NCBI GenBank assembly: GCA_030390025.1
Contig: CM059449.1
Location: forward strand, 15,004,001 to 15,068,000
Direction of reading: 5' to 3'
DNA: 64,000 nt
Source of the DNA: Squalus acanthias
Taxonomy: Eukaryota
The position numbers and the translations under genes are program-made. Position 1 is the first letter of the stretch. Each line of letters starts with the position of its first letter. The notes under the pieces were generated by a model. That model ran no database searches. It saw only the letters and a program-made list of their open reading frames with translations, and was not told where the DNA came from. Below are positions 12,376 through 61,286 of this stretch, piece after piece.

Positions 12376-13032
12376 TAAACAAGCAACATTGCTCCCGATC
12401 CCGTCGATTTCCCGATGGGTGGGTTAGGGTAAAATTGCGGAGTATTATATGTGTCTAAGACAAGGAGGGTGTGTGACTTGCAGGAGAACTTGGAGGTGAT
12501 GGTGTTCCCATGCACCTACTGCCCTTCTAGGTGATGGAGGCCATGGGTTTGGGAGGTGCTGCTGAAGAAGCCTTGCCAGTGCATTCAGGAGATCGGACGC
12601 ACTGCAGCTGCCCTACGCCTGGGTGATGGAGGGGGTGAATGTTTAGGCAAGTGGATAAGGTGTCAATCAAGCAAACTTCTTTGTCCTGGGTGGTGTGGAG
12701 CTTCCTGAGTTTTACTGCAGCTGCATCCATCAGAGCAAGTGGAGAGTACACCAACACTCCTGAGTTGTTATTCTATTTAGATATCTTCTACTTCATTTCA
12801 GCTGCTGCCTGGATTGCGGTGGAATGCTCGACTTCCGCAGGGCACAAAAACGGGCGGTGGCTTATCGGCATTGATATGAAAAAGAAAATTAGGTGGGGTT
12901 TATTACAGGCTGCCGATCCGCCACTGCCCGTTTTCCGCTCCCAAAGGAAGTTGAGCTTTGACCCTGCTGTTCTTTTTCCAGGTGCTCTCTCCTATTTGTA
13001 ACTACAGTGTTGATTTATCCCAGTATAGGCTC

Positions 13033-15007
13033 CAGAAAAAGCAGCAAACCTGAGGATTGGGAGCAGTTTAGGATTCAGCAAACGAGGACAAAGGGATTAA
13101 TTAAGAGGGAGGAAATAGAATATGAGAGTAAGCTTTCAGGGAACATAAAAACTGACTGTAAAAGCTTCTATAGATATGTGAAGAGAAAAAGATGTGTGAA
13201 GTCAAGCATAGGACCCTTGCAGTCAGAATCAGGGGAATTTATAATGGGGAACAAAGAAATGGCTGACAAATTAAATACATACTTTGGTTATGCCTTCACA
13301 AAGGAGGACACAAATAAACTCCCAGAGATGTCGGGGAACATAGGGTCTAATGAGAGGGAGGAATTGAATGAAATCAGTATTTGTAGGAATATGGTGTTAG
13401 GGAAATTAACGGGATTGAAGGCCGATAAATCCCCAGGGCCTGATAATCTACATCCTAGGGTACTTAAGGAAGTGGCCCTAGAAATAGTAGATGCATTGCT
13501 GGTCATCTTTCAAAATTCTATAGACTCTGGAACAGTTCCAATGGATTGGAGGTTAGCTAATGTAACCCCACTATTTAAAAAAGGTGGTAGAGAAAAAACG
13601 GGTAATTTTCGACCGGTAAGCCTGACATCGGTAGTGGGCAAAATGCTAGAGTCCATTATAAAAGATGTTATAGCAGAGCACTTGGAAAACAGTGACAGGA
13701 TCGGACAAAGTCAACATGGATTTACAAAAGGTAAATCATGCCTGACTAATCTACCGGAATTTTTTGAGGATGTAACTGGTAGAATAGATAAGGGAGAACC
13801 AGTGGATGTGGTGTATTTGGACTTTCAGAAGGCTTTCGATAAGGTCCCGCATAAGAGATTAGCGTGCAAAGTTAAAGCACATCGGATTGGGGGTAAGGTA
13901 CTGATTTGGATAGAGAACTGGTTGGCAGACAGGAAGCAAAGAGTTGGAATAAATGGGTCTTTTTCCGAGTGGCAGGCAGTGACTAGTGGGGTACAGCAGG
14001 GATCAGTGCTAGGACCCCAGCTATTCACAATATATATTAATGATCTAGACGAGGGAACTAGATGTAATATCTCTAAATTTGCAGACGACACAAAGCTGGG
14101 TGGGCGTGTGTGCTGTGAGGAGGATGCAGAGAAACTCCAGTGTGATTTGGACAGGTTGGGTGATTGGGCAGGTGCATTGCAGATGCAGTATAATGTAGAT
14201 AAATGCGAGGTTATCCACTTTGGTGGCAAAAACAGGAAGACAGATTATTATCTGTACGGCAATAGATTGGGAAAAGGGGAAGTGCAACGAGATCTGGGAG
14301 TCCTTGTGCACCAGTCACTGAAGCTAAGCATGCAGGTGCAGCAGGCGGTTAAGAAAGCAAATGGTATGTTGGCCTTCATAGCGAGAGGATTCGAGTACAG
14401 GAGCAAGGATGTCTTGCTGCAGTTGTACATGGCCTTGGTGAGACCACACCTTGAGTATTGTGTGCAGTTTTGGTCGCCTTATCTGAGGAAGGATGTTCTT
14501 GCCATGGAGGGAGTGCAGCGAAGATTCACCAGACTGATACCTGGGATGGCAGGAATGACGTATGATGAGAGATTGGGTCGATTAGGCTTATATTCGCTAG
14601 AGTTTAGAAGAATGAGAGTGGATCTCATTGAAACTTATAAAATTCTAACAGGACTAGACAGACTAGATGCAGGAAGGATGTTCCCGATGGCGGGGGAGTC
14701 CAGAACCAGAGGTCACAGTCTAAGGATAAGGGGTAAGCCATTTAGGACTGAGATGAGGAGGAATTTCTTCACCCATAGAGTGGTGAACCTGTGAAATTCT
14801 CTACCACAGAATGCAGGTGAGGCCAATTCATTAAATATATTCAAGAAGGAGATATATTTATTTCTTAAGCCTAAAGGGATCAAGGGATATTGGGGGAAAG
14901 CAGGGACAGGGTACTGAATTTGGATGATTAGCCATGATCTCATTAAATGGCGGAGCAGGCTCGAGGGGCCGAATGGCCTACTCCAGCTCCTATCTTCTAT
15001 GCTTCTA
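13033..15007 (+). mobile_element. 5'-truncated CR1 LINE with a long open RT frame; copy-A-specific insertion
   Basis: ORF 13007-14794 contains KSPGPD, NFRPVSLTS, YLDFQKAFDKV, QGSVLGP and FADD. Copy B has the empty site ataggctc|tggtcgtcc at ~41188. Confidence 0.95.
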
Positions 15008-15529
15008 TGGTCGTCCTACCGCAGCATTACAGTCTCTTGGGTCAGATAACTCTTAAAAGTACACGTTGTTTAAAAAAAAGGTTGGGCTGGAATAAGTAGC
15101 AAAAAGCTGATCATGTAGATCCCGTCGAAAGCGCTCTGAAAGTGAAAAGCATGCTGTTGCATTTACACAACTGGGCTCAGCACCATTCCGTGACATGTGG
15201 CCAACACATGATCATATTTCAGACAATTGCCAGGCACTATTCATTTAAATCAAACCCGAGTACTATCGCCGGTTTTCATTTACAAACTCTGCGCCCTTTA
15301 ACTTCAGTCTAACATGTTTGTCATTTTTTAAACAGGTGCAAGATGAGTTTCAATCCCCCGGGTGCGTAAACACCCACTGAAATTAGTGAAGGATGAAACT
15401 GAACTGTGAGGCGTTATTCCTTTGTTTCAATGTACCGCTTGTGTAATGTTAAAGTAGTGCTTCTTTCTTAAATATTCTTAAAATATGACTTTTCCGACTA
15501 CAATTGGAAAACGTGCTGAGTGAACAGAA

Positions 15530-15580
15530 TTCCTCTGTGTGGTGTTAAACCACCAGAGGGGTTCGTCATATAAGTCAGCG
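15530..15580 (+). promoter_or_regulatory. Candidate P1 proximal promoter (RUNX-like TGTGGT, TATA-like TATAAG)
   Basis: Motifs lie ~100-135 nt upstream of the ATG; TATAAG is also present in copy B. Motif match only. Confidence 0.35.
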
Positions 15581-15671
15581 TCTGTTGTGGGATGTTTGTT
15601 ACACTTAATAACACTTTGGGACGCTGCAGGTCAGATGTTAGCTCGTAGTGTCCTGCGGAGCAAGAATCAAA

Positions 15672-18600
15672 ATGCAAACTATTCACATGTGGCTGTTCTT
15701 GAATTTACTGACAATACTTTTGTATATCGGTGAGCCGCTGTCTTCTGATGTTCACATTTTAATTTTTTTAAATTTGCTTCTGGGATCTGGGCGTCACTGG
15801 CAAGGCCAGCATTTATTGCTCAGCCCTAGTTGCCCTTGAGAAGGTAGTTGTGAGCCGCCTTCTTGAACCGCTGCAGTCCGTGTAGTGAAGGTACTCCCAC
15901 AGTGGGCTGTTGGGTAGGGGGTTCCAGGATTTTGACCCAGCGACGATGAAGCATCGGCGATATACTTCCAAGCCAGGATGGTGTGTGACTTGGAGGGGAA
16001 CTTGGAGGTGGTGGTGTTCCCATGTGCCTGCAGCCCTTTTCCTTCTTGGTGGAAGATGTCGTGGGTTTGGGAGGTGCTGCCGAAGAAGCCTTGGAGAGTT
16101 GCTGCAGTGCATCTTGTAGATAGTACACACTGCAGCCATGGTACGCTGGTGGTGGAGGGAATGAATGTTTAAGGTGGTGGATGGGGTGCCAATCAAGCGG
16201 GCTGCTTTGTCCTGGATGGTGTCGAGCTATTTGAGTGTTGTTGAAGCTCCACTCATCCAGGCAAGTGGAAAGTATTCCATCACACTCCTTACTTGTGCCT
16301 TGTAGATGTTGGAAATTCTATATTTATTAAGGCATACGATTATTTGGTTGGGCAGGTTGTTTCCTTATGCAGAACTAATATATAACGAAGTTACAGTGTG
16401 TAAAAAAATGTTTTATTTTATTATGCTGTGTTACTTTGCGTTGAATCCACCATTTCAACGGTATAAGCATTTTATCTTTCGGGGAGCTTTATATATATAT
16501 TATACACATTAACGTTCTCCTCCATGCAGATGCTGTGAATTTGCATTATAAAATTAACATAATTAATAGGGCCTACTAAAATCTACTTGTGGAAATAAAT
16601 GAATTCACGGGCTCCTAACCGACTGTGTTACACATGGAATTATCTGACATATTATACCTTCTACTCGACAATTCAACGTCTTTGCGTTCGACACAATTTA
16701 TTCCATTAGCAAAAAGTTGATATTCAACACGTTTCCAAAAGTTCCCATACTTACACTTGACATAATAGAAAGGACAGATTTCCTTCTTAAATGATTAAAG
16801 ATGACAGAAGTGAAATCTGTCCCAAGTAGGATGGTGAAATAGAAATGAGTTGGGAAGTGGTGATTATATAATGTTAATACAGTTTTACAAAGAAAACAAA
16901 CTGCGTGAAAACACAACAGATCCGCCTTTATAAAGTGACAATTGCCTATAATTTTTGCACTATAAAGGTTCTGAATATATACAGCTGTTCAATCTGATTA
17001 TGGACTGCAATTTCCCAAAGTTGCGTTGAGAAACTGGAAAAGGACCCAATGTAATGACAGCTGAATACCGGTTTGTAGCTCAATGATTGATGGATCAATC
17101 AGCATTTTAAATTCTTCATAATAGCTTGTAAATTGTGGGACACATGAGATCATTATGTTAAAAAAAAACCGTAGCTGTTTGACAGATCAATGCTTCTTTC
17201 TCCAGAAACACACATGTTGTATCTTGAATCTATTTGTACTGCCCACTCCCACGGCCGTCTCCAGTAACTTGTTCCACAAATCTCTTACTCTATAGGCGAA
17301 CAGTTTCTGCCTGACTTCCCTTCTTGCAGCTAACCAGTTACCGTCTGAAGTGTGACCCTTGGAAATTAGATCCTTCCCCACAGTGACCGATCTATCTGGG
17401 CTCAATTCATAATAATTGTACAACGTTAATTGACAGGTTGCGGTATTTCATGGACGGATACATTGATCCTAATTTATTCTAACAATAAAGGACACCCAGT
17501 AACATCAATTAGTGATAGTGGAAGATACTTTAATTTGAGCTTCGCCCCTCGTGGCAGATGAAATTTAACGCAGGAAAGTGCGAGGTGTTACATTGAGGGA
17601 GGAAGGACGAGGAGAGGCAAAATAAACTAAAAGGTCCGATCCTAAAGTGGGTGCCTGAACAGAGAGACTTGGGGGTATATGTGCACAAATAGTTGAAGGT
17701 TGAGAAACTGGTTAACAAAGCATATGGGATCCTGGGGTTTATAAATAGAGGCATAGAATACAAAATCAAGTTAGTTATGATAAACTTTTATAAAACACTG
17801 GTTCGGCCTCAAATGGAGTATTGTGTCAAATTCTGGGCACCGCATTTTAGGAAGGATGTGAAGGCCTTAGAGAGGGTGCAGAAAAGATTTACAAGAATTG
17901 TTCCAGGGATGAGGAACTTCAGTTATGTGAATAGACTGGAGAATCCGGGGTTATTATCCTTAGAGCAGAGAAGATTGACAGGAGTTTTGATAGAGGTGTT
18001 CAAAATCATGAGGGGTCTGGACAGAGTCATTGGCGGAAGGTTCCAGAACAGAGGACACAGATTTAAGGTGACTGGCAAAAGAACCAAAGGCGACGCAGTG
18101 AGTGGTTAGGACCTGGAATGCACTGCCTGAAAGAATGGCGGAGGCAGACTCAATCGTAGTTTTCAAAAGGGAATTGGATAAGTACCTTAAGGAAAAAAAA
18201 ATGCAGGGTTAAGCGGAAAGGGCGGGGGAGTGGGACGAGCGGAAGTGCACTTGCAGAGAGCCGGCACTGTCTCGACGGGCCGGGATGGCCTCCTTCTGTG
18301 CTCTAACGATTCTATGATTCTATGCTGGTCTGTAATTCTGTAGGTCACTATTGACAGATTGCATTGTTCCATTTATACTCTAGACAATGGGTTGATGAGT
18401 GAGCTCAGAGTGTTCCAGTCCCCAGATGCCATTAATGTAACAGAAGGAGGATCGGTGCAGCTGAACTGCACTTTTGACGCGAATGGTCCTGTTGGACATA
18501 TTGTTTGGATGCGGGCCTCACAAAACATGGAAGTGTCGGTTCGGAATCCTTTCTATCAGAGCTGGATAACGAAGTCAGGGACGAAATTATTTACCGAAAG

Positions 18601-21600
18601 AATGGTTTTCCTTGAAATCATCAATTTACTGACAATGGACTCAGATTTTTACTCCTGCGAGGTGGATATTGTGGAGTTTGGGAAAGCAGGCGGGACAGGA
18701 ACAAAACTTATAATAACTGACAGTGAGTAGAAAAGATGAGAGTTCGTTTGAAGAATTTACCAATAATTTGGCATTGGTATGGCTGTACATGTGCTATGCA
18801 AAGAGATTTCAGTTCGGTTGCTGAATTGTGTCCGTGCGTCAAGATCACTTTCAAAGTACATCGGGAACAATTGGTCGACAATTAATATCCTGAAAGTGCC
18901 ATATACCTGACTTGAATCTGACTATTCAAGGCGCGGTGCTTTAGGAATAGGAATACACGAGCTTCAGGCTACTCCCCCACCCCACCACCCCACAACCACC
19001 TGAAGGTGAGTGTTATCTCAAAATAATACTTGGCATTATCGCTTGATTTTCTTGCTTGGCACCTTACATATCTCTGTTAGGGCAGCTATGTTCCTCCTTT
19101 TTTACAAAGCTAATGAGTTCGACCTTTTCTGTTTTTTTGTTTTTCTCATAACCTAGCACTAGAACACGAGGGAACAGGCTAGCGTTCACTCCACCTCCGG
19201 GACTTACATGTCTCCCATGAGCCTGAGTGACCAGAAATAAACACAATACTCAAGATGCCATCTGATCAGAGTACTGTACGGTTGGATCCCCACACCATAT
19301 AAAAGGAAACATGCCTTCTATATGTTTTATTCCTTTCTGGGATGTGGACGTCGCCCAGCATTTATTGCCCATCCCTAATTGCCCTTGAGAAGGTGGTGGT
19401 GAGCCGCCTTCTTGAACCGCTGCAGTCCGTGCGCTGAAGGTACTCCCACAATGCTGTCAGGGAACGAGTTCCAGGATTTTGATCTAGCGGCGATGAAAGA
19501 ACGGCCGATATATTTCCAAGTCAGGATGGTGTGTGACTTGGAGGGCGACTTGGAGGTGGTGGTGTTCCCATGCGCCTGCTGCCATTTTCCTTCTAGGTGG
19601 TAGAGGTCGCGGGTTTGGGAGGTGCTGCCGAAGAAGCCTTGGCAAGTTTAATGAAATAGGCTTTAGTTAGAATTTACTGTTTTCGATATAAGCCTTTATT
19701 TTAAACAGGTTAGCGTCTTGGTTAAAATGAAGGGCATGTGGAACGCTAGTATTGCAACAAATAATTATAGTTTTTTTCACTTTCCACGGGGATGCAGTAC
19801 CTTAGATTACATATACAAATAGGAAACGGCTTTTCTTTAACGGATAGAAAGCCACTGGAATGATATTTGAGTTTTCATAACCTATAACCTATATCCAAAT
19901 TTAATTATTAAATTGCGAACTAGTGACCTTCGTTATGTCTATTTCCGATTTACATTGATGGGGGGTGAAATCGGACATGGGTGGATCGCGGATCACATTG
20001 GATCGCCTGTTATACACTCCGCCCAGTATTAGGTCCAATTGCCTTAATATAAAACTGAATATTGGGCGCACCAAACCGAAATACTGCGGATGCTGGAAAT
20101 CTGAAATAAGAAACAGAAAATGCTGGAAATACTCAGCAGGTCGGGCAGTATCTGTGGAGAGAGAAACAGAGTTAACTTTTCAGGTTTCTGACAGAAGGGC
20201 ATCGACCCGAAACGTAAACTCTGTTTCTCTCTCTCCCTGCAGATGCTGCCTGACCTGCTGAGTGTTTCCAGCATTTTCTGCTTTTTATATTGAATATTGG
20301 GCGTGTTGTACAGCAGTCGGCCAATATGATTCTGTCTGCCTTGCGTGCCTGTCCATGTCAAATTTCACCCCTATAACAACACAAAAGCAAAATAATGCGG
20401 AAGCTGGAAATCTGAATTAAAAACAGAAAATGCTGGAAATACTCAGCAGGTCAGGCAGCATCTGTGGAGAGAGAAACAGAGTTAACGTTTTTGGTCGATG
20501 ACCCTTCGTCAGAACTGGAAAAAGTTGGAGATGGAACAGGTTTTTAAGCAAGTGCAGGGGCAGGGAAAGGGGGGAAGGGAGGAAAGAACAAAGGGGAAGG
20601 TCTGTGACAGGATGGAAGGCAGGAGAGATTAAGAGACAAAAGGGATGATGGTGCAAGGCAAAGGGAGATGGTAATGGGACAAGTTAAGAAACAAAAGATG
20701 ACTCTAGATGAAGTGTAAATGGCAATGGCAGAATGATCGACCACCTCACCATTTTCTTGCATTATCTTTCACTTTAACCAAGCACCACCATACTGACTAT
20801 ATTATTGGCCCAAAAATTCGTGAGGAAGCCTTCGTGCGAGGGTAAGGCCTCCCCGCGATCTCTCACTCCGCGTTGGCTTTTTCAGTTCCAGCTCGCACGA
20901 ACTTGATGTTCTGGACAGCAGCTGTGCTGGGCTTGCGTATCCCACCGGCGTAGTTAATTCGTGCGAGCTGTGGGATCACGTGACTCAGTTAGAGCCAATG
21001 GCAGCACAATATCTTCCATTCATAACTTTCACATAAGTGCTGTGAAAGTTATGAATACTATAGCTCCCCAAAAGAACCGCTAAACCTCAATTAAATTAAA
21101 AAAAGAACCATCACATTAATAAAATAAGTATAGTTAAATAAATTAACCATTTTAAATAAAAAATTAAATTTTTGAAAATTTTAAAATCTTTTAAAAAGTT
21201 ATAAAAATAAACTTACCTGTCTTTAAAGTCTCTAAAAAATTTCAAAATAATACTTAATTCACTACTTACCTTGTTAAAAGTGGGTCTTACTCCTTTTTTT
21301 CTGTGTAGAATCTTCCGTACTTACCTGCGCGTTGAAACCACTAAGTGCACAGCGTGCGCGCAGCCTGTAGCGCGCACGCGGTTCACCTAGGACCCGCCCC
21401 CTTTTCCATTCACCAAGTGCCGGTTTTCAGCGCATGCGCAGTGCATGCAGAAAACCGGCAATTGGAGACAGAATACGCGAGAGTACGCAGTGCGTACTCT
21501 CGCGTAGCGGGACTAATTTTTGGGCCATTGTTTCTGTTTCTAACAGGAGCTAGATTCGAGCCGATCTGCCATTTCCCCACGCTCAGCGTTGGATTACAAA

Positions 21601-21668
21601 TTACAAAAACGGTGCTGCTGATCATTCTCATAATCACAGGGCTGACGACGTACCTCTGTCCAACGTAG
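15672..21668 (+). CDS. Gene P1: NKp30/NCR3-like V(J) receptor with stalk Cys, TM Lys and no signalling tail (activating type). Exons 15672-15729, 18384-18722, 21547-21668
   Basis: Leader MQTIHMWLFLNLLTILLYI G|gtgagc. V exon tctag|ACAAT...GGTGTKLIITD A|gtgagt. Last exon taacag|: RARFEPICHFPTLSVGLQITKTVLLIILIITGLTTYLCPT*. All junctions phase 1 and open. Confidence 0.85.
17545..18325 (+). mobile_element. CR1 3' fragment just upstream of the P1 V exon (shared with 43710-44530)
   Basis: ORF 17693-18109 with CR1 motifs and tail. Confidence 0.88.
18384..18722 (+). CDS. Gene P1 Ig V(J) exon
   Basis: Within ORF 18359-18730: ELRVFQSP...VQLNC...IVW...DSDFYSCEV...GTGTKLII. Confidence 0.92.
20069..20291. 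mobile_element. Fold-back Penelope-derived insertion with 13-bp flanking direct repeats (tgaatattgggcg), shared with copy B (~46284-46510)
   Basis: Inverted arms aaaatgctggaaatactcagcagg.../...cctgctgagtgtttccagcatttt. Confidence 0.7.
20807..21526. mobile_element. MITE, PIF/Harbinger-like (12-bp TIR GGCCCAAAAATT, 3-bp TSD ATT), copy A only
   Basis: att|ggcccaaaaatt...aatttttgggcc|att; copy B has the empty site at ~46988. Confidence 0.8.
21547..21668 (+). CDS. Gene P1 stalk/TM/terminal exon
   Basis: Strong acceptor tttctgtttctaacag. Cys in the stalk, Lys in the hydrophobic segment, stop TAG ending at 21668. Confidence 0.82.
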
Positions 21669-23249
21669 GGAAAAATAGACTTTGATTTATAACAAGATAC
21701 ATCTGCAAACGTTGTTGGAAAAGATGTCCAAAGTCGATGTAAATTTTATCAGGAAGTTCTTTAAGATGCCCGTGTTCGATATCTTTTTGTTACAGCATTG
21801 CATGGATGTGGATTAAAGCATGGGCGAGGATAGATATAGTTCTTATTCCAGAATATTTCAATTAAAGTTACTGCACCGTCAACTTAATAACTAGCAGCTG
21901 CCATTCTGTTTGAGAGACGTGTTTATTTTTAAAAAAATGACAAATCCATAGATTTTTCTAACTGTCATGGTCGGGATAAAATGTCTAGTTTGTGCAAGAT
22001 CTTTCTCGATACTTGCTTGCAATGCCTTTAACTGAATGCTGCACACGATCTATTCAAAATGGATGGATGCTTACGATGTGCTTTTTTATTGGCCCCTTTA
22101 TGCGAGACTTTCTAATATAATGTGACGTATCTGCACCCTGTATGAAAGGGCTCTTGGAATTTTTTCCCCGATTAAAGCGAACGCTTTCTTTCTCGTGTTT
22201 AATCGAAATTGGTCTTTACTTGCTGGGATCAGTAGAAGTCCCATCCTCAGCTTGTCAGCAACAACTTTTATGCACCCCAGTGCGTCCTGTAGGGGATTAT
22301 AGGACTAGGCGTCATAGTTTAAAAATTAGAGTCAGACCTTTCGGGAGTGAAATTAGAAAACACTTCTATACACAAAGGGTGGTAAAAGCTTGGAACTCTC
22401 TTCCACAAACGGCAATTGATGACAGATCAATTGTTAATTTTAAATCCGAGATTGATAGATTTCTGTTAACTAAAGGTACTAAGGGATATTGGATCAAATG
22501 TTGGGAAAAGCGAGAGTGGCCGGAGAGAGAGAGAAAAGAGAGAGAGCGGGAAAAAGTGAGGCCGTGATTGGAGAATCAGCGAGTACCAGGGGAGGTTGTG
22601 TGTGAAACACAACAGCACGTGACAAGAAGGGGAGGAGCCTGGAAAAGGCCGCAGTGCCCCGGGAAAGACCGGCTTTAGAAAATTAGAGTGTTGCAAATTC
22701 ATCAGCCGAGGTTTGGGGAAGGAGTTGGGGTGGGGGGCACTCGGGAAAATCCCCCATTAGCCAGTCGACCTCTGAGGGGATGCTTGCGGGCCGGATGAAA
22801 CTGGTGGACAGGAGAATGTGGGACTATAAATATACAGGAATACCACCAACAGCAATTTCCAGGCCGAAAGTGACCGTAATGTACCTGATGGCACTGCTTC
22901 TGATCTGTGATGTGCAGCTACATCTGGAGTCAGGTTGAGCAGCTAATAGTATCCCATTCATTAAGTTATTCACATATACAGATAGGCACAACCACGATGG
23001 GCCGAACGCCCTCCCTCTGTGCTATATCATTGAATAAGCAGAACTAATGGAATGATGGACGTGTTGATGTCCAGGTGTCCAACTCAGTTCCTGGCAGGCG
23101 TTGTGCAGGACAGGGGCAATGAGAGCATGTGCAGCCTTTGGAATAAAAAGTTGAAATCCGCTCTCATTTCCTTGGCCCAGGGCTGAAACCAGTCACAGAT
23201 GAAAAACGGCTCTTTCTACTGGCTTTGAGGGTCCCCTGAAAAATGCTGA

Positions 23250-23885
23250 ACATAATAAGAAATAGGAGCCGGAGTAGGACATTTGGTCCTTCGAACCAGA
23301 TCTGCCATTCAATAAGATTATGGCTGATCTTCCACCTCATCTCCACTTTCCTGCACTATCCGCATATCCCTTGATTCCCTTAATATTCAAAAATCTATCG
23401 AACTCTGTCTTGAATATACTCAACGATTGAGCCTCCACGGCCCTCTGGGGTAGAGAATTCCAAAGATTCACCACCCTCTGAGTGAAGAAATTTCTCCTCA
23501 TCTCAGTCCTAAATGGCCGACCCCTTATTCTGAGACTCTTACCCCTGGTTTTAGACTCCCCCGCCAGGGGAAACATCCTCCCTGCATCTAACTGGTCAAT
23601 TCCTGTAAGAATTTTGTATGTTTCAATGAGATCACCTCTCATTCTTCTCAACTCGAGAGAATATCGGTTCAGCCTACTAAATCTGTCCTCATAGGACAAT
23701 CCCCCCATCCCCGGAACCAGTCTGGTGAACCTTCGTTGCACTCCCTCTATGGCAAGTATATCCTTCCTTAGGGAAGGAGACCAAAACTGTACACAATACT
23801 CCAGGTGTGGTTTCACCACGGCCCTATATAATTGCAGTCAGACATCTTTACCCTTATACTCAAATCCTCATGTAATAAAGGCCTA
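23250..23885 (-). mobile_element. CR1 3' fragment (almost entirely absent from copy B)
   Basis: ORF 23337-23819. Confidence 0.9.
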
Positions 23886-38619: not shown

Positions 38620-39020
38620 AATTAGTTAATCAATAAGTGAATAAATCAATCGGACATTCAATCGAGAGATTTGCAGTTAATCGACCAGTCGAATGATCTA
38701 TCGATCAGTCCAGTGATCAGTAAATCAAGCAATGGCTCCTCAAACAATCGGACAAACGCCAATCGGTCAGTTGGCCAATCGGCTGATCGATTAACAGTGA
38801 ATTAATCAATTGGTTTCAGTCAATGAATCAATCTTCCACTTATTCAAAAGATGAATCGTTAATTAATCCTAAATCAATCAAACAATTTTCAACCAATCCT
38901 CAGATGCTCCGACTTTCAGTCTACTAATCAATCCTCAACCGGTCAGTCAATCAATCTATTAATAAGTCAATTAGTGAATTCGTAAGCCAGCAAATAGCTC
39001 AGTCAGTGAATGATTGAAAC
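38620..39020. repeat. Degenerate (AATC/AGTC/GATC)n tetranucleotide-derived tract
   Basis: Recurrent aatcaatc, agtcagtc and atcgatc words. Confidence 0.6.
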
Positions 39021-47129: not shown

Positions 47130-47354
47130 GGAAAAATAGACTTTGATTTATAACAAGATACATCTGCAAACGCTGTTGGAAAAGATGTCCAAAGTCGATG
47201 TAAATTTTCTCAGGAAGTTCTTTATGTTGCCCATGGTCGATATCTTTGTGTTACAGCATTGCATGGATGTGGATTAAAGCATGGGCGAGGATAGATATCG
47301 TTTTTATTACAAAATATTTCAATTAATTTTACTGCACCGTCAACATAATAACTA

Positions 47355-47564
47355 TGATGTGGAGATGCCGGTGTTGGACTGGGGTGGACAAATGTGAGAA
47401 GTCGCACAACACCAGGTTATAGTCCAGCAGCTTTATTTGAAATCACAAGCTTTCGGAGCGCTGCTCCTTTGTCAGGAGAAGTCACCTGACGAAGGAGCGG
47501 CGCTCCGAAAGCTTGTGATTTCAAATAAAGCTGTTGCACTATAACCTGGTGTCGTGCGACTTCT
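47355..47564. mobile_element. 210-bp fold-back Penelope-derived insertion with 13-bp TSD and two opposed hammerhead motifs, copy B only
   Basis: TSD AACATAATAACTA at 47342 and 47565; empty site at ~21881 in A; same termini as 31857-33070. Confidence 0.85.
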
Positions 47565-47719
47565 AACATAATAACTAGCAGATGTCATTCTGTTTGAGAG
47601 ACGTTTTTAATTTAAAAAATGACAAATGCATAGATTTTTTTAACTGTCATGTTCGGTATAAAATGTCCAGTTTGTGCATGATCATTAATGTTACAGCAAA
47701 TGTTCTTTTACCCTACGAA

Positions 47720-48208
47720 ACTCGGCAGGCCGTGTCCTAACTCGCACCAAGTCCCAGCTCCCCTGTGCTCGCTGACCTACATTGGATCACGGTTAAGCAG
47801 CGCCTCGATTTCAAAATTCTCATCCTTGTTTTGAAATCCCTCCATGGCCTCGCCCCTCCCTATTGCTGTAATGTCCTTCAGCCCCCCAACCCCCCCGAGA
47901 TATCTGCGCTCCTCTAATTCTGCCCTCTTGAGCATCCCTGATTATAATCACTCAAGCATTGGTGGCCGTGCGTTCTGCTGCCTCGGCCCTATGCTCTGAA
48001 ATTCCCTGCCGAAACCTCTCCGCCTCGCTACCTCTCTTTCTTCCTTTAAGACGCTCCTTAAAACCTACCTCTTTGATCAAGCTTTTGCTCATCTGCCCTA
48101 ATTTCTCCCTATATGGCTCGGTGTAGATTTTTTTTGTCTTACAACAACATGGGACGTTTTACTGCGTAAAAGGCGCTATATACATACAAGTTGTTGTTGT
48201 TGTTGTTG
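47720..48208 (+). mobile_element. L2-type LINE 3' end with (GTT)n tail
   Basis: Encodes PVLADLHW..VKQRLDFKILIL..KSLHGLAP ... FKTLLKTYLF, typical of the L2 ORF2 end. Confidence 0.8.
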
Positions 48209-51200: not shown

Positions 51201-51249
51201 TTTTTAGTGCAGATTTATTTCATTAAATTTAAATTCCCCAGTTGCTGTG

Positions 51250-54150
51250 TCATAGTCATAGAGTTATACAGCAGAGAAAGAGTCCCTTCTGCCCATCATG
51301 TCCACGCCGGCCATCAAGCCCTGTGTATTCTAATCCCATTTTCCAGCACTTGGTCCGTAGCCTTGTATGCTATGGCGTTTCAAGTGCTCATCTAAATGCT
51401 TCTTGTTTGTTGTGAGGGTTCCTGCCTCTACAACCCTTTCAGGCAGTGAGTTCCAGAATCCAACCACACTCTGGGTGAAAAACTTTTTCCTAAAATCCCC
51501 TCTGAACCTCCTGCCCCTTACCCTGAAACAATGCCTCCTGGTTATTGACCCCTCTACTAAGGGGAAAAGTTCCGTTCTATCTACCCTATCCATGCCCCTC
51601 ATAATTTTGTACACCTCAATCAGGTCCCCCCTCAGCATTCTCTGCTCTAAGGAAAACAACCCCAGCCTGTCCAGTCTCTCTTCATAGCTGAAGCGCTCCA
51701 GCCTAGGTAACATCCTGGTGAATCTCCTCTGCACTCTCTGCAATGCAATAACATCCTTCCTATACTGTGGCGACCAGAACTGCACACAGTATTCCAGCTG
51801 AGGCCTAACTACTGCTTGTACAGCTCCATCATAACCTCCCTGCTCTTATATTCTAAGCCTCGGCTAATGAAGGCAAGTATCGCATATGCCTTTTTAAACA
51901 CCTTATCTACCTCTCCTGCTGCCTTCAGGGATCAATGTACATGCACATCAAGTACCCTCTGATCCTCTGTCCTTCCTCGTGTCCTACCATTCATTGTGTA
52001 TTGCCTTGCCATGTTAGTCCTCCTAAAATGCATCACCTCACACTTTTCAGGGTTAAATTCCATTTGCCACAGTGCTGCCCATCTAACCAACCCGTCTATA
52101 TCGTCCTGTAGCCTGAGGATTCCCTCCTCGCTATTTACCACTCCACCAATTTACGTGTCATCTGCGAATTTACTGATCACACCTCTTACGTTCATTTCTA
52201 AATCATTAATATACACTACAAACAGCAAAGGACCCAGCACCGATCCCTGTGTTGCACCACTGGACACAGGCTTCCAGTCAGAAAAACAACCTTCGACCAT
52301 CACCCTCTGCCTCCTGCCACTAAGCCAAATTTTGAGTCCAATATGCGAAATTGCCCTGGATCCCATGGGCTCTTACCTTCTTGACCAGTCTCCCATGTGG
52401 GACTTTGTCAAAAGCCTTACTGATGTCCATGTAGACTATATCAACTGCACTACACTCATCCACAAACCTAGTCACCCTCTCGAAAAATTCAATTAAATTG
52501 GTTAAACATGATCTCCGCCTGACAAAGCCACGCTGACTTTCCTTGATTAATCCTTGCCTCTCCAAGTGGAGACTAATTCTGTCCTTCATAATTTTTTCCA
52601 ATAATTTCCCTACCACTGATGTTAGGCTCACTGGCCTGTAATACCCAGGTTGAACCCTACAAACCTTCTTGAATAATGGTACTACGTTAGCTGTTCTCCA
52701 GTACTCTGGCACATCCCTTGTGGCCAGAGAGGTTCTGAAAATTTGTGTCAGAGCCCCTGCAATCTCCTCCCTTACCTCACACAGCAGCCTGGGATACATC
52801 TTGTCTGGACCTGGGGATTTATCCACTTTTAAGCCCGCTAAAACCGCTAGTACCTCCTCTTTCTCAACACTAATTTGTTCAAGTATATCACAATCCCCCT
52901 GCCTGATTTCTATGCCTACATCGGCCTTCTCCAGAGTGAACCCAGGTGCAATATATTCATTTCAAACCTCACTTACATCTTCCAGCTCTACACACAGATT
53001 GCCACTTTGGACCCTAATGGGCCCTACACTTTCCCTGGTTATCCTCTTGCCCTTAATATACTTGTAAAACACGTTGGGATTTTCCTTTATTTTGCCCACT
53101 AGTGTTTTTTCATGCTCCCTCTACGCTCCACTAATTTATTTTTTAATACCCCCCTGCACTTTCTATACTCCACTAGGGCTTCCACTGTTTTTAGTCCTTT
53201 GTATCTGCCAAAAGCCTCCCTTTATTTCCTAATAAATTTTTGTATATCCCTTGACATCCAGGGTTCCCTAGGCTTGTTGCTCCCACCCTTGACCTTTACG
53301 GGAACATGTTGACGTTGTACTCTCTCTATTTCCTTTCTGAAATACTCCCACTGCTGTGATGTGGATTTTCCTACAAGTAGCTGATCCCAGTCCACTTTGG
53401 CCAGATCCTGCCTTATATTAAAATCGGCCTTCCCCCAATTTAGAACCTTTCTTTCCGGTCCATCTTTGTCCTTTTCCATGACTACCTGAAATCTCACCGA
53501 ATTATTGGTCACCGTCACCAAAATGCTCTCCTACTGACACTTCTACCACTTGCCCGGCTACATTCCCTAGAATTAGGTCCAGCACCGCCCCCTCTCTTGT
53601 AGAACTTTCTACATCCTGGCTCAAAAAGCTCTCCTGGATGCACTTTAAGAATGCGGCACCCTCTAAGCCTTTCACACTCTGACTATCCCAGTTAATATTG
53701 GGGAAGTTGAAATCCCCCCCTATTATTTATATACTTCTCAGGGATTTGCCTACATATCTGTTCCTCTATCTCCCCCTGACTGTTTGGGGGCGTTTAGTAC
53801 ACTCCCAGCAAAGTGCTTGCCCCCTTTTTGTTTTCTAGTTCTACCCATATGGCCTCATTAGAGGAACCTGCTAAGATATCATCCCTCCTTACAGCAGTAA
53901 TTGACTCCTTGATTAATATTGAGACACACGCTCCTCTTTTACACTGCCCTCTGCCTCGCCTGAAGATTCTATACCACGGAATATTGAGCTGCCAGTCCTA
54001 CCCCTCCCTCAACCATGTCTCTGTGATAGCAACAATATCATACTCCCATGTGTTCATCAACACCTTCAATTCATCTGCCTTACTCGCAAGACTCCTTGCA
54101 TTAAAATGAATGCCATCCCACCTTGCCATACTCCCTTGTGCCGTTAGAGA
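51250..54150 (-). mobile_element. CR1 LINE (~2.9 kb, degenerate), copy B only
   Basis: ORFs 53222-53521, 52320-52826, 52151-52366 and 51330-51785; interrupts the SINE shared with A. Confidence 0.92.
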
Positions 54151-56082
54151 TATGCTCTGCCTTGAATTCTGGGACTGTTAGATTTCATTTCATGCCTTTC
54201 TTTGATTGGCTTTCTCTTGAATTATAACTCATATTTTAGTCCCATCTCTATTCAATTTCGATTTTCAACTTGCATCGCCTGTGCGTAAAAGTGGCGTTTG
54301 GGATGGGCCGCACCTGTGCTTTACGCCTGTGTGGCAAGTTGAGAATCTACCCCACATCTTCAAGAAGAAAAGTTGAGGCCGTCCAACTTCGTTTCATCTT
54401 TAGATTTTTACATCCAACTGAGAGAACTGTTTACATGATAATCTACCTGGAAAAGTAAACCAGAGGTCAGTAGGTTTAAAAATAACAGAATTAGCCCAAG
54501 TCATTGTGCTACATACCCGATTTGTTCATCTGCACGCAGAGCTGTCATAATTCCTCTCTATAAAGCAGAGAAAAAGGAAAAAAAGAAAGACTTGCATTTA
54601 TATAGCGCCTTTGACCACCTCAGGACGTCCCAAAGCGCTTCACAGCCAATGAAGTTCTTTTTGAAGTGTAGTCGCTGTTGTAATGTAGGAAACGCGGCAG
54701 CCAAATTGCGCATAGCAAGCTCCCACAAACAGCAATCTGACAATGGCCAGAAAATCTGTTTCAGTGATGTTCATTCAGGAATAAACATTGGCCGGGACAC
54801 CGGGGAGAACACCCCTGCTCTTCTTCAAAATAGTACCAAGGGATATTTTACTTCCAGCTGAGAATGTAGTCGGGGCCTTGGTCTACTGTGTCATCCAAAA
54901 GATGGCACCTCCGGCAATGCAACGCTCCCTCAGCACTGCACTGGGAGTGTCAGCCTAGATTTTTGTGCTCAAGTCTCTGGAGTGCGACTCGAAGGCCACA
55001 ACCTTCAATGTTTCAGAGGCGTGGGTTAACAACGGAGCCACTGCAAATGACCCTGCCTAATTTAATTTACTTGAACAGTGTATACAATACAATAAAACAT
55101 ATTGTGCCGTAGAAAAAGCGCTGTAATGCACTGTGGTCTGATGCTATAGGATACAACATAACATGGAAGAAAACGAGAAGGCAATAAAATAAAATATACA
55201 GTAGGATGTACCGTATTGCACAACAATAAAACGATACAATTAGTATGGTCCAATATATAATACGCTACCACGCAATATAAAACAGCCTAAGATTTTTCTG
55301 TGCGATATAAACGGTGTTCATATCAGATTCCGAGGCCCACTATTTTAACTGTTTACTTTAAACTAATGTGAAAAGCATGAGCGCGCCAAGCACTCGTACG
55401 AGAATAGGGTGATATCCAGGCTAATCTATTATAATAGATGATATATAATACAGCATAACATTGAAACGTACTTTTAAATATCATGTAATAATACGTCACA
55501 CAAAAAAGTCAGCGTGTGGTAAGAACATATTTTAAAATATTATATTAGCCATAAACCTTAACACTTCAAATTGACATTGTGACCAAGACGTCTAAAATGT
55601 GTCACTCAATAGCCGTTTTGGAAGCAAGAGTTATTGAATCATAGAGCCATACAACACAGAATGAGGCCATTCGGCCCAATCTGCCCGTGCCGGCTCTCTG
55701 CAAGAGCTATTAATTAGTCCCACTCCCCCCTGCTCTTTCCCCATAGCCCTGAAACAGTACCCTTTTTAACTATTTATCCAAATCCCTTTTGAAAGTTAAT
55801 GTTGAATCTGCTTCCAGCACGCTTTCAGGCAACGCATTCCAGATCACAACAACTCACTGAGTAAATAAAACATCTCCTCATCTCCCCTTGCCTTTTTTTT
55901 TTACCAATACCTTAAATCTATGACCTCTGGTTAGCGACAGAATAATCAGACTGAACAAGACTGAACTCTTGGTCAACGGATTATACGTGATAGAATAGAA
56001 AATTAACCATATTATCAATTAAAATCGAATTAAATCGAAGGAGTAAGCGTTCGGAGTTTATTAAAAGTGACAGGTTGTTCAC

Positions 56083-56505
56083 ATAGAAACATAGAATCCA
56101 GGAGCAGGAGTAGGCCATTCGTCGAGCCTGCTCCACCATTCAATACGATCATGGCTGATCATCCAAATCCAGTACCCTGTCCCTGCTTTAATCCCCACAG
56201 TACACATATCCCACCCTACCCCCGTAACCCCACGTATTTAATTCCCCCTAACATATCCCATCCTATCCCCATAACCCCACATATTTAATCCCCCCCTAAC
56301 ACTAAGGGTCAATTTATCATAGCCAAATCAACCTAACCCGCACATTTTTGGACTGTGGGAGGAAACCGGAGCACCCGGAGGAAACCCACGCAGACACGGG
56401 GAGAATGTGCAAACTCCACACAGACAGACACCCGAGGTCAGATTCGAACCCGGGTCTCTGGCGCTGTGAAGCACCAGTGCTAACCACTATGCCACCGTGC
56501 TGCCC
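56083..56505 (-). mobile_element. HE1-type V-SINE (tRNA head, V core, CR1-type tail), copy B only
   Basis: GGGCAGCACGGTGGCATAGTGGTTAGCAC...GGGTTCGAATC head; core GTGTGGAGTTTGCACATTCTCCCCGTGTCTGCGTGGGTTTCCTCCGGG; empty site at ~28228. Confidence 0.85.
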
Positions 56506-56670
56506 GTTTCTTTCTGTCACCCACCTGTTTCATGGATCACTGAGTAGAGCGGATCTGAACTGAAGCAAAAGAGGATACCAGAAAATGTAGGCATCCAAAA
56601 CAATAAAATACATTAAAGAAAAAGAAAGTGGCTTTCTTTAAAAAAAAAGTCGATCAATGTAAACAGTTAC

Positions 56671-59034
56671 CTGGTGGGTTGCTGAAGAGCGACTGTGAGG
56701 AGAGAAAGACAAAGACAGAAAAATTAAAGAGCTGAATTTATTGATTATATCTGCAAGAAGCAACTGAAATAATTGATATCGAAAGAATTGAATCAAATTT
56801 TGGGGGCAGTTTTAAACAAACCCGCGGAGAAACGGACGGGATCGGGTGCAACGTTTTGAAGTCAAATGAGAGCAACATTGGACGCGTCTAAACCCGGCGT
56901 TCCACCCGATGCCGTGCGTGTCCCGCCGGGTGAGTTCGAATAAAATTACCAGAGAATTTGCCAACCACATGGAACTCAGTAGAGGTACAATTAGTGCTGT
57001 TACCTCTCTTACGACGCCGGCTGATAACAACTATGACTATGATGATGATGATGATCAGGAGGGGAACCGCTACCGTTGCAAAGACGAGTGGTGGGATCAT
57101 TGGTGCGGACTCGCCGTGGCTGCTCTCTCCACCACCTGTGTGTAAATGTAAAGTTTCTTTTGTGAGACAGAGCATTCAAGAGCAGGGCAATGATCACATT
57201 GAGATTGAGGATCAGCAAATGTGACACAGATTCCCAATCCCCTTTGACATGCGGGGCTATTTCACACTGGCATACATGAAACTAGGCCACGGATCAAAAC
57301 GCAAAATGTCACCAGTGGGCAACTGGAGATATTCCCACCCTGGAAGTAACACTGGGAGAAATTTAATGTAGGGACGTTTAATGGGTTGGTGCCAGTTTCC
57401 TTTCTTTTAAATGCCGGGGGGTAGAGGTGAGGTCGTGTGAGTTCTGTTAACATCGGAACTTAGAAACAGGAGGAGGCCATTCAGTCCCTCCAGCCTGTTC
57501 CACCATTCAATGAGATCATGGCTGATCTGCGACCTAACTCCATATTACCGCCTTTGGCCCATATTCCTTAATACGTTTGGTTAACAAAAATCTATCAATC
57601 TCCGATTTAGAATTAACAATTGATCTAGCATCAGTTGTCGTTTGAGGAAGAAAGTTCCAAACTTCTAGCAGACTTTGTGTGTGTAGAAGCGTTTCCTAAT
57701 TTCACTCCTGAAAGCTCTGCTATAAGTTCTACACCATGCCCCCTCGTCCTAAACTCCCCAACCAGCGGAAATAATTTCTCTCCATCTACCATCTCTGTTC
57801 TCCTTAATATCTCGAGAGTGTCCCGCCCAGTTTTCTTGAATTCACTAGAACCTGGAGATCCAATAGATCCTGAGCACGAACCAGAAAATCGTCCCCTCCT
57901 ATTTACGGGATGCTTAAGACAAAGCGAACATCTGGAAATTAGAAGTGCCGAGACTGGGTGGTCAACGTGGTTCTTCCGCGGACCCATCTTTGCATTTTGT
58001 TGGCGCGCAATGTTGTAATTTCTATTTGCACACACAATTATATCCGTCACTACCTCCATTTACAGGATGACAGTGAAATCTAACTTATCATAGAAGTGTT
58101 TACCGGTTTATTTCCAATATTGGCACGCGGTGATTTCACGTGTTGCTCTCATTACGGGGCTCCAGTCTTCGCCTCGCTCACTGTAACTGGGTTGACTACT
58201 TATCTACAGCCCTACCTAAAATTGTATACAGCAACTGAAGGTAATTAATATCCCCTCCATTATTTTATTTTAAAAGGTCATTCTCGGGATACGGGCGACG
58301 CTGGCGAGGCGGGCATGTTATTGTCCATCTCTGGTTGACCCCTTGCGAAGGTGGTGGTGGGCCGCCTTCTTCTTGAACTGCTGAAGTTCAGTGTGGTGAA
58401 GGTTCTCCCGCAGTGCTGTTAGGGAGGCAGTTCTGGGATTTTGGAAGGAACAGCGATACAAGTCCAAATCAGGATGGTGTGTGACTTGGCGGGGGACTTG
58501 GAGGTGATTGTGTTCCCATGCGCCTGCTGCCCTTGACCTTCTGGGTGGTGGAGGTCGCGGTTTTGGGAGTTCCAATTGATCTAATGGAGAATTTATCTCT
58601 ACGGCCGAAATTACCCCTAGCAAAATCCCATATGATTGCGTGCAATTTCATTGGTAATAACATCTCCACCAATCCAAACTTACTGTGTTGACGCCGTTCC
58701 ACGGTCACTGTTGTCCCGGTTCCGTCTGCTGCAGCGAATCCCACGAGCTGCACTTTGCAGAAATAGAACCCGGTATCTTCCGGTTTCAGCTGGATTATTC
58801 TAATGGTCGCGTCTCCCCTCTGGCTGAAATCCGCTTCACTTGCCCCGAACACCCTGCCTCTGTATTCCGCTGTATTGTTGGAAACGTCATTTCCCTGTTT
58901 GTTGCCTCGGTGCCACGTGTAGCTGCCGATTCCTGTGGGACTCTCATATCTACAGAGCAGGTCCGCTGTCTGTCCTGCGGTTTTGGTGAGAGATTGCGGG
59001 CTCTGAATTACGGTAATATTTCCAACAGTAACTG
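56671..59034 (-). CDS. Gene N2: single-V paralogue of N1 (exons 59034-58684, 57135-57004, 56692-56671); leader not found, functional status unknown
   Basis: ORFs 58469-59077 and 56888-57175. Exon sizes of 351, 132 and 22 nt are identical to N1 and the frames are open. Homology to copy A ends at ~61286, before the leader position. Confidence 0.8.
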
Positions 59035-59604
59035 CTGAAAGTGGGTAAAACAGACCATTTATAAATTTACAGGGCACCTCTTTGCTTTAAAGCACGCCGT
59101 GGAAGGGCTGGTTTGAAGCAAATATTTGTTCGGAGGATTTTTGATAAGGTATTCCTGATCTTTAACTTGAGGGAATAAAAACTGAAAGCACTGGCTACAC
59201 TCAGCAGGCCAGGCAGCATCTGTGGAAAGAGAACCAGAGTTAACCTTTCAGCTCCATGACATTTCGTCAGAACTGAAAGGTTGGAGATGTACCAGGTTTT
59301 AAGCAATTGCAGAGGCAGGGAAAAGGAGGAAGGGGAGGAAAGAAGAAAAGGGAGGGTCTGTGATAGAGTGGAGGCAGGAGAGATTAAATGACAAAAGGGA
59401 TGATGGTGCAAGACAAAAAGAAATGGTAATAGGACAAGTAAAGAAACAAAAGATGGGTGCATAAGGGGTGTGAATGGTTAACTTGAGGGATATTGGTGCT
59501 GGAGCTGGAGCGCCTTTGGTTTTTGGGATCACTCCATGTCAAGTATAGAATGGATCTGGTACAAAGTACCTCTGACCCGTTCCAAATAATAAGCATTCAC
59601 TTTA

Positions 59605-61071
59605 ACGATAGTCCAGTCTCTTCCCACCTACATCCGCGACTCTTCCGATGCCCTCCGCCATTTTAACAGTTTCCAGTTTCCCGGCCCCAACCGTCTCCTC
59701 TTCACTATGGACGTACAATCCCTCTACACCTCCATTCCCCACCAGGATGGCCTGAGGGCGCTCCGCTTCTTCCTTGAACAGAGGCCCAACCAGTCCCCAT
59801 CCACCACCACCCTCCTCCGCCTGGCTGAACTTGTTCTCACATTGAACAACTTCTCCTTTGACTCTACCCATTTCCTCCAAATTAAAGGTGTTGCTATGGG
59901 TACCCGCATGGGTCCTAGCTATGCCTGCCTTTTCGTGGGATATGTGGAACACTCTTTGTTCCAGTCCTACTCGGGTCCCCTCCCTCACCTCTTTTTCCGG
60001 TACATTGATGACTGTATCGGTGCCGTCTCCTGCTCTCGCCCTGAACTAGAACATTTCATTCACTATGCTTCCAATTTCCACCCTTCCCTCACCTTCACAT
60101 GGTCCATCTCCGACTCTTCTCTTCCCTTCCTCGACTTCTCCATCTCCATCTCTGGGGATAGGTTATTGACTAACATTCACTACAAGCCCACCGACTCCCA
60201 CAGCTACCTGGACTACACTTCCTCCCACCCCGCCTCCTGTAAGGACTCTATTCCATTCTCCCAGTTTCTCCGTCTCCGCCGCATCTGCTCTGATGATGCC
60301 ACCTTCCATACCAGTGCTTCCGACATGTCTTCCTTTTTCCTCAACCGAGGATTCCCCTCTACCGTGGTCGACACGGCCCTCGACCGTGTCCGTTCTATCT
60401 CCCGCACATCTGCCCTCACCCCTGCCCCTCCCTCCCGGAACCACGATAGGGTTCCCCTTGTCCTCACCTTTCACCCCACCAGCCTCCACATTCAACGGAT
60501 CATCCTCCGCCATTTCCGCCACCTCCAGCGTGATCCCACCACCAAACACATCTTCCCCTCACCTCCCCTCTCAGCATTCCGCAGGGACCGCTCCCTCCGC
60601 GACACCCTAGTCCACTCCTCTACCACCCCCAGCACCCCTTCCCCTTCGCCCGGCACCTTCCCGTGCACGCGCAGGAGATGCAACACATGCCCTTATACCT
60701 CCCCTCTTCCCACTGTCCAGGGCCCCAAACACCCCTTCCAGGTGAAACAGCGATTTACTTGTACTTCCTGCAATTTAGTATACTGTATTCGCTGCTCACG
60801 ATGTGGACTCCTCTACATTGGGGAGACCAAACGCAGATTGGGTGACCGCTTTGCGGAACACCTCCGTTCAGTCCGTAAGGGGGACCCCGAGCTCCCGGTG
60901 GCCTGTCACTTTAATTCACCGCTTCACTCCCACTCTGACCTCACCGTCCTCGGCCTAATACACTGTTCCACGGAAGCTCAGCGTAAGCTCGAGGAACAGC
61001 ACCTCATCTTTCGTTTAGGCACGCTACAGCCCTCTGGACTCAATATCGAGTTCAACAATTTTAGATCATAA
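59605..61071 (+). mobile_element. Penelope-like retroelement, 5'-truncated, with open RT + GIY-YIG frame (454 aa), copy B only
   Basis: DVQSLYTSIP, GVAMGT, RYIDD, LPFLD, YKPT (PLE RT); NLVYCIRC...LYIGETKR...RFAEH (GIY-YIG). Empty site at ~33138. Confidence 0.93.
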
Positions 61072-61286
61072 TCAGTTCTCCCGGTATGCTTTCTGTGCTG
61101 TCCGCCGCTCTCATTAACACTTTGAGCGAGGGTGTGAAATGGGCAATCTCGAATTAAACGCCTTGCCCGATGTTCTGTTCCATTTGGGTGCCATTTTAAC
61201 TCTGGGTGCTAAATGGGCGAGGTCGGATCGGCTGCCTGAAATCAAAATCGGGGCAGGTGTACAACTGCGGCTGATCCGATGTCGCC

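What the first reader, a model, noticed from the sequence alone, without database searches (positions are those of the whole stretch)
12868..61286. A convergent P/N gene pair duplicated as a ~20-kb cassette and then decayed asymmetrically
Seen: P (+) and N (-) face tail-to-tail and the pair is repeated ~28 kb downstream. In copy B the charged-TM gene has two nonsense codons, while the N2 V, TM and 22-nt exons remain open. Inference: birth-and-death evolution at cassette level with preferential loss of the activating member, as described for mammalian paired receptors.
Basis: partly seen in the sequence, partly recalled or inferred. Interest (0 to 1): 0.7.

Follow-up and report, generated by a model that had tools for sequence, protein, structure and literature searches.

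The report
Shark NKp30-like receptor array, dead copy
The gene pair is one repeat of a large array of shark immune-receptor genes related to human NKp30, and in the second copy both genes are broken, so there is no one-sided loss; the likely on/off partners are other genes in the array that share nearly the same binding exon.

Summary
The duplication is real: copies A and B are 89.7% identical over 14.2 kb, each with private retroelements. P and N are shark NCR3/NKp30-family genes, and P2's two stops are confirmed. The asymmetry is wrong. The pair is one unit of an array with 16 P-type and 27 N-type V exons. Across it 3 of 10 P and 6 of 15 N genes are intact (p=0.69), and the broken copies share a few founder lesions. 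P and N V domains are only ~30% identical, so they are not a classical receptor pair. Better pairs lie nearby. Five Arg-TM, short-tailed genes carry an N-type V (up to 95% identical, DNA match confined to the V exon). P-type V also sits on neutral-TM tailed genes and in P-V/N-V/ITIM fusions. This fits birth-and-death plus V-exon homogenisation. Expression and signalling are not shown. This scan noted similar things on other DNA, in this and other genomes.

The parts
12869..33307 (.). Repeat unit copy A (homology to copy B; N1 leader lies just outside)
41025..61286 (.). Repeat unit copy B, 89.7% identical to A over 14,151 aligned bases
15672..15729 (+). P1 leader exon (58 nt, phase 1), homologous to the leader of Stegostoma XP_048376288
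18384..18722 (+). P1 V(J) exon, NKp30-like, open
   Evidence: a relative's contig spans exactly this exon
21547..21668 (+). P1 stalk/TM/stop exon with Lys (21606-21608) and a 4-5 residue tail; predicted activating
   Evidence: Lys invariant in 10 of 10 whole copies; 8 of 13 variants synonymous
34885..34927 (-). N1 leader exon
30985..31335 (-). N1 V exon 1
30418..30768 (-). N1 V exon 2 (567-bp tandem duplication, in frame; predicted V-V ectodomain)
28727..28858 (-). N1 uncharged TM exon
28394..28415 (-). N1 22-nt cytoplasmic exon
28248..28282 (-). N1 cytoplasmic exon 2 (membrane-proximal Tyr motif)
26657..26697 (-). N1 cytoplasmic exon 3
25018..25125 (-). N1 last exon with two ITIM-consensus motifs (LQYATL, VLYASV); N1 is an open 360-aa frame
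41854..41911 (+). P2 leader exon with TGA at 41887-41889 (shared by 5 P copies)
44594..44932 (+). P2 V exon with TAG at 44860-44862
47008..47129 (+). P2 Lys-TM exon, open, with a Val-to-Glu change inside the TM
58684..59034 (-). N2 V exon, open, no leader exon upstream
57004..57135 (-). N2 TM exon, open
56671..56692 (-). N2 22-nt exon, open
56525..56559 (-). N2 cytoplasmic exon 2, open
54517..54557 (-). N2 cytoplasmic exon 3 with premature TGA at 54526-54528, upstream of both ITIMs
50186..50292 (-). N2 ITIM exon with 1-bp deletion after the first ITIM
13033..15004 (+). LINE fragment (reverse transcriptase) inserted upstream of P1, only in copy A
20808..21525 (.). 718-bp insertion just before the P1 TM acceptor, only in copy A
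51250..54161 (-). LINE fragment (reverse transcriptase) in N2's last intron, only in copy B
59606..61073 (+). Retroelement with weak RT and GIY-YIG hits (Penelope-like by inference) in N2 intron 1, only in copy B
   Evidence: both Pfam hits below cut-off

Best explanation
The two copies are neighbouring repeats of an alternating array of shark NKp30-family receptor genes, and copy B is broken in both genes; the array likely grows by block duplication that copies live and already-broken genes alike, with no detectable bias against the predicted activating gene. Shown: P1 is a leader, one V exon and a Lys-TM with almost no tail; N1 is a leader, two V exons, a neutral TM and a tail with two ITIM-consensus motifs. 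Inferred: P signals through an ITAM adaptor via the Lys, and N recruits SHP-type phosphatases. The likely on/off pairs share a V type, not a cassette. N-type V sits on ITIM tails (N) and on Arg-TM short tails (five 'A' genes). P-type V sits on the Lys-TM (P), on neutral-TM tailed genes 1.4-1.5 Mb away, and in front of N-type V on an ITIM tail (four fusion loci, two fully open). V-exon-limited gene conversion likely keeps the binding domains alike.
For: N2's three lesions. Intact fractions P 3/10 vs N 6/15, p=0.69 (models). Lesions shared among copies: leader TGA plus TM Val-to-Glu in 5 P copies; donor loss plus V frameshift in 2 P; identical leaderless junction in 4 N. Nested duplications at 94-99% with breakpoints that ignore the P/N unit, including N1+P2 copied 492.8 kb away at 97.6%. 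A genes: own leader, Arg-TM, V 95.4% identical to an N V, DNA match only the V exon +15/+4 nt, dS 0.07-0.11. A bamboo-shark protein with the A-type leader groups by its V with bamboo-shark N, and an A-orthologue clade is rejected, p-AU 0.0008. P V versus neutral-TM genes: V dS 0.10-0.13, leader dS 0.35, leader region 71%. Adaptor coupling through TM Arg/Lys: PMC6514059 passages.
Against: No transcript from this species covers any junction, so all gene models rest on splice sites and homology. The Lys-TM exon has no detected homologue outside the array, and P orthologues in other sharks have a different TM and a Tyr tail, so 'P is activating' is inferred. Counts are small and copies are not independent, so a modest bias either way cannot be excluded. 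Blocks at 98-99% may include falsely duplicated haplotypes. The bamboo-shark A protein lacks a TM in its record, so its class rests on the leader alone. The group for the AU test was named from leader identity before the tree was built, but it has only 3 rows.
Confidence: 0.82

Rival explanations
1. One reading: cassette duplication followed by preferential loss of the activating P while N2 stays useful, for example as a tail-less decoy.
For: P2 has two stops; N2's V, TM and first two tail exons are open. Fewer P than N are intact, 30% vs 40%. N V exons show more constraint than P V (intact N w=0.44, CI 0.25-1.00; all P w=0.89, CI 0.60-1.61).
Against: N2 lacks a leader and both ITIMs are cut off by a stop. 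Three sister copies with the same junction have further lesions (V frameshifts in 2; stop and missing last exon in 1). The difference is not significant. At least 7 distinct founder lesions are seen in N and 3 in P, though N has more exons to hit.
Confidence: 0.07
2. The A/B duplication is an assembly artefact (two haplotypes laid in tandem).
For: The contig has gaps nearby (500 N at C26:15242542, 200 N at 17028863) and some blocks are 98-99% identical.
Against: A and B differ by 10% and carry private retroelements. The A|B junction itself recurs at 97.6% elsewhere, and some blocks occur three times. Read depth was not tested.
Confidence: 0.03
3. P is not an activating receptor: the Lys exon is a non-functional or secretory end, and the array's P genes are V-exon donors or relics.
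For: No homologue of the Lys-TM exon outside the array. P orthologues elsewhere have another TM. 7 of 10 P are broken and 6 more copies of the exon are internally deleted.
Against: The exon is open in 10 of 10 whole copies with no gap columns. It has 13/122 variable sites against 44/213 in the flank (p=0.023), and 8 of 13 variants are synonymous (p=0.008).
Confidence: 0.15

Closest known systems
Shark NCR3 (NKp30) multigene family, e.g. nurse shark QTT61898 and QTT61901; Heterodontus XP_067865593; Stegostoma XP_048376288; Chiloscyllium XP_043533718; catshark XP_038671257
   Same: Single-exon VJ-type V domain; N V is 72% identical to nurse shark QTT61898 and has the same tail exons and Tyr motifs as the Chiloscyllium and catshark proteins; P V is 64% identical to the Heterodontus protein.
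   Different: Much larger expansion here (16 P-type and 27 N-type V exon hits; nurse shark is cited with eight accessions); P V on a Lys-TM with no detected orthologue; V-V and P-V/N-V forms. Kinlein et al. 2021 (PMC8273117) could not be read, so overlap with it is unknown.
Human NKp30 (NCR3)
   Same: Best solved-structure hit for P V (E 2e-6) and best single-domain hit for N V (E 1e-11); charged TM and short tail in P and A.
   Different: Human NKp30 is one activating gene (recalled); here there are many copies, including ITIM-bearing ones.
Mammalian paired receptors with ligand-domain homogenisation ('merohomogenization': KLRC, KLRI, KLRB, Ly49, PIR; Fossum et al. 2011, PMC3210942, abstract and first part of Discussion read)
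   Same: Near-identical binding exon on opposite signalling ends, unrelated flanks, within-species grouping of V domains (N/A pair).
   Different: Different gene family and a cartilaginous fish; the P/N pair of the finding does not fit (30% V identity); shared ligand untested.

Membership tests
NCR3/NKp30 family | Single-exon, non-rearranging VJ-type V domain with GxG in the G strand | tested here: met
   One phase-1/1 exon per V with GxGT near the end; Pfam V-set above cut-off
NCR3/NKp30 family | Closest named relatives are NCR3 proteins | tested here: met
   tree
NCR3/NKp30 family | Charged TM residue and short tail (mammalian NKp30) | tested here: inconclusive
   Met by P (Lys) and A (Arg), not by N (neutral TM, ITIMs), as in other shark members
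NCR3/NKp30 family | Linkage to the MHC | tested here: inconclusive
   16 of 50 MHC class I exon matches lie on the same contig, 15-23 Mb away; the best class I matches are on other contigs; the class II search rang nowhere
NCR3/NKp30 family | Binds B7-H6 | not testable with these tools
   no binding assay; not modelled
Paired receptors (P with N) | Highly similar ectodomains | tested here: not met
   P1 vs N1 V 29.6-31.5% identity
Paired receptors (A with N) | Highly similar ectodomains with opposite signalling ends | tested here: met
   V 85-95% identical; Arg-TM with short tail vs neutral TM with two ITIMs; signalling itself inferred
Paired receptors (A with N) | Homogenisation limited to the ligand-binding exon | tested here: met
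   DNA match limited to the V exon +15/+4 nt, apart from repeats; AU test p=0.0008
Paired receptors | Shared ligand and opposite signals in cells | not testable with these tools
   needs cell assays
Paired receptors | Preferential loss of the activating member | tested here: not met
   P 3/10 vs N 6/15 p=0.69; P+A 5/15 vs N+fusions 8/19 p=0.73; low power

The most novel reading that the evidence does not exclude
In this shark the NKp30 family has become a KIR/Ly49-like paired-receptor complex. Two V lineages are each wired to both activating and inhibitory ends by V-exon conversion and exon shuffling, including a new two-domain P-V/N-V ITIM receptor, and P and N may be co-regulated from head-to-head promoters (11 of 12 N leaders face a P leader 3.4-9.3 kb away).
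Probability: 0.45. Interest if true: 0.6.

Novelty: new member of a known kind. Interest (0 to 1): 0.36.

Why it matters
The asymmetric-decay claim fails, and a dead duplicate in an immune gene array is ordinary. The surroundings matter more. They suggest that the oldest jawed-vertebrate lineage with adaptive immunity builds on/off receptor pairs from NKp30-like genes by the same exon-limited homogenisation seen in mammalian NK receptors, and they give defined gene pairs (A/N, P/neutral-TM P, P-N fusion) for ligand and signalling tests.

Tried and rejected
Reads: no RNA holder listed for the N V-V stretch; DNA holders had 24-33% of the words, not interpreted. Laying four RNA-guess runs on copy A was swamped by repeats. 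Only two relative-species contigs over V exons were informative; no splice junction was shown among the listed rows. A 124-nt candidate exon at 19157-19280 was rejected: in-frame stops in 12 of 12 copies, at the same early codon in 11. Pairwise dN/dS was uninformative: P1/P2 V w=2.0 on 3 synonymous differences, N1/N2 V 0.43-0.65. The word-indexed search with P V at near length found nothing, and the Lys-TM search found nothing (weak). MHC class II search rang nowhere. The tail-to-tail cassette as the unit of duplication was rejected: 7 of 10 P TM exons have an N last exon 3.1-4.4 kb on, but 11 of 12 N leaders also face a P leader, and block ends fall anywhere. Literature: 8 searches listed no paper on inhibitory or paired shark NCR3 genes. 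Kinlein 2021, Flajnik 2012 and a 2023 Immunogenetics paper were not held, so absence from print is not shown. C26 15.258-15.398 Mb and most of 13.7-14.9 Mb were not fetched; the V searches listed no P- or N-type hit in the former.
Full report
Setting. The window is C26:15,004,001-15,068,000 of a 3.7-Gb genome. It holds six NKp30-like V exons: five found by motif plus P2's broken one. Human NKp30 is the best solved-structure hit for P V and the best single-domain hit for N V. The nearest named proteins are shark NCR3-family members.

Observation. Copy A (12869-33307) recurs at 41025-61286, 89.7% identical over 14,151 aligned bases. Each copy has private insertions: 1,972 and 718 bp in A, 2,912 and 1,468 bp in B, three of them with reverse-transcriptase hits (other, smaller indels exist). 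P1 is leader 15672-15729, V 18384-18722 and a TM exon 21547-21668 with a Lys and almost no tail, 172 aa open. P2 has TGA 41887-41889 and TAG 44860-44862. A contig from a relative (run X13, RNA only by guess) covers exactly 18384-18722 with 39 differences. This fits the exon ends but does not say which P-type gene it comes from. Using catshark and bamboo-shark tails as probes, N1 resolves into eight exons with canonical splice sites and an open 360-aa frame: leader, two V, neutral TM, four tail exons ending in two ITIM-consensus motifs.

N2 is broken. Exon c3 has TGA at 54526-54528, ahead of both ITIMs, and the ITIM exon has a 1-bp deletion. There is no leader: 12 N-leader copies were found in the fetched DNA, none between N2's V and the next N V 21.6 kb on. 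The same leaderless junction is shared by three other N copies. Copy B is therefore dead in both genes.

Array. Genome searches gave 16 P-type loci and 27 N-type V exons at high identity on C26 (lower bounds). I fetched 1.0 Mb in 100 stretches around them. The unit repeats many times in both orientations, by nested duplications of 94-99% identity whose ends ignore the P/N unit. The A|B junction (N1 with P2) is itself copied 492.8 kb away at 97.6%, and some blocks occur three times, which argues against a haplotype artefact for A/B. Read depth was not tested. Head-to-head adjacency is as regular as tail-to-tail: 11 of 12 N leaders face a P leader at 3.4-9.3 kb, and 7 of 10 P TM exons face an N last exon.

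Asymmetry test. Genes with leader, V and Lys-TM: 3 of 10 intact (P1, 15.166, 15.501 Mb; the last has lost DNA just upstream of its leader). N genes with a V exon, fusions set aside: 6 of 15 intact; one of the nine broken differs from an intact twin only by an AG-to-AA acceptor. Fisher p=0.69; with 6 P and 4 N remnants, 3/16 vs 6/19, p=0.46. Copies are not independent. Five broken P share the leader TGA and a TM Val-to-Glu, two share a donor loss and frameshift, and six share one TM deletion, so three founder events. N shows at least seven distinct lesions over more exons. V-exon dN/dS is not decisive. No bias is detected; power is low.

What pairs with what. P and N V domains are 30-32% identical. 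Five N-type V exons (14.973, 15.430, 15.641, 15.732, 17.109 Mb) belong to other genes, 'A', with their own leader, an Arg-bearing TM and a short tail; three have a 4-bp insertion after the TM that alters the tail. A V is up to 95.4% identical to N V. The DNA match covers only the V exon plus 15 and 4 nt, apart from repeats, dS 0.07-0.11. Bamboo shark GCC38509 has the A-type leader, but its V groups with bamboo and nurse shark N (92/94), and holding it with our A genes is rejected (p-AU 0.0008). This is the pattern Fossum et al. describe for mammalian pairs (PMC3210942; abstract and first part of Discussion read). P-type V likewise occurs at 13.47 and 13.63 Mb on the neutral TM and tailed form seen in Stegostoma (the Heterodontus TM carries an Arg). 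There, V dS is 0.10-0.13 against leader dS 0.35 and 71% identity around the leader; only one of the two keeps an ITIM-like motif, and their middle tail exon was not found. At four loci a P leader and V exon lie 3-4 kb upstream of a leaderless N on the same strand. Two give an open 358-359-aa P-V/N-V/TM/ITIM frame with canonical splice sites, and two have a broken tail donor.

Mechanism. Shown: gene structures, lesions, duplication map, exon-limited identity. Inferred: splicing, adaptor coupling through TM Lys/Arg (as for NCRs; PMC6514059 passages), phosphatase recruitment by ITIMs (general knowledge), gene conversion as the cause, and shared ligands. The Lys-TM exon shows purifying selection but has no detected homologue outside the array, so P's activating role is the weakest link.

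Comparison and verdict. These are members of the known shark NCR3 family. Kinlein et al. 2021 was seen only as a title in a reference list, and an eight-accession range as a passage in PMC12227049; its text and supplements may already cover inhibitory forms. Same-contig MHC class I exons lie 15-23 Mb away. Earlier scan notes, seen after the analysis, report similar features elsewhere and one gene of this array. The finding as written is an ordinary dead duplicate with a wrong asymmetry claim; the surrounding paired-receptor architecture is a new instance of a known kind. Interest 0.36.

Noticed in passing
window 5740-~700 (-): A third NCR3-like gene (leader 5698-5740, V 3201-3542, TM-like exon near 700-835), head-to-head with P1. 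Its TM lacks the Arg of the catshark relative, and the TM exon's frame was not resolved. Copies at C26 15.128 and 15.461 Mb.
   Followed up: partly
G000:C26 15,079,293-15,091,337 and 15,219,483-15,232,264 (-); also 15.75-15.76 and 17.13-17.14 Mb: P leader and V exon fused upstream of a leaderless N gene; open P-V/N-V/TM/ITIM frame in 2 of 4.
   Followed up: yes
G000:C26 14.973, 15.430, 15.641, 15.732, 17.109 Mb: Arg-TM, short-tail genes with an N-type V exon; the likely activating partners of N.
   Followed up: yes
G000:C26 13.47 and 13.63 Mb: P-type V on a neutral TM with a tail, matching Stegostoma and Heterodontus proteins.
   Followed up: partly
window 30418-31335: N1's V exon is tandemly duplicated in frame (567 bp, 93.5%); 3 of the 6 intact N genes have this V-V form.
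   Followed up: partly
G000:C26 13.5-14.1 and 14.77-14.95 Mb: About two dozen further, more divergent NKp30-like V exons of other subtypes.
   Followed up: no
G000:C26 30.7-38.4 Mb: Cluster of 16 MHC class I-like exon matches on the same contig.
   Followed up: no
G000:C26 15.55-15.78 Mb vs 17.02-17.16 Mb: A block of over 100 kb is repeated 1.4-1.5 Mb away at 96-99% identity, near an assembly gap; real or haplotypic is untested.
   Followed up: no
window 59593-61071 (+): 492-codon stop-free frame with weak RT and GIY-YIG hits; the insertion is absent from N2's three sister copies.
   Followed up: partly
window 9849-10683: An ~830-bp piece of N's last intron (85% to 25747-26601) lies upstream of P1.
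   Followed up: no
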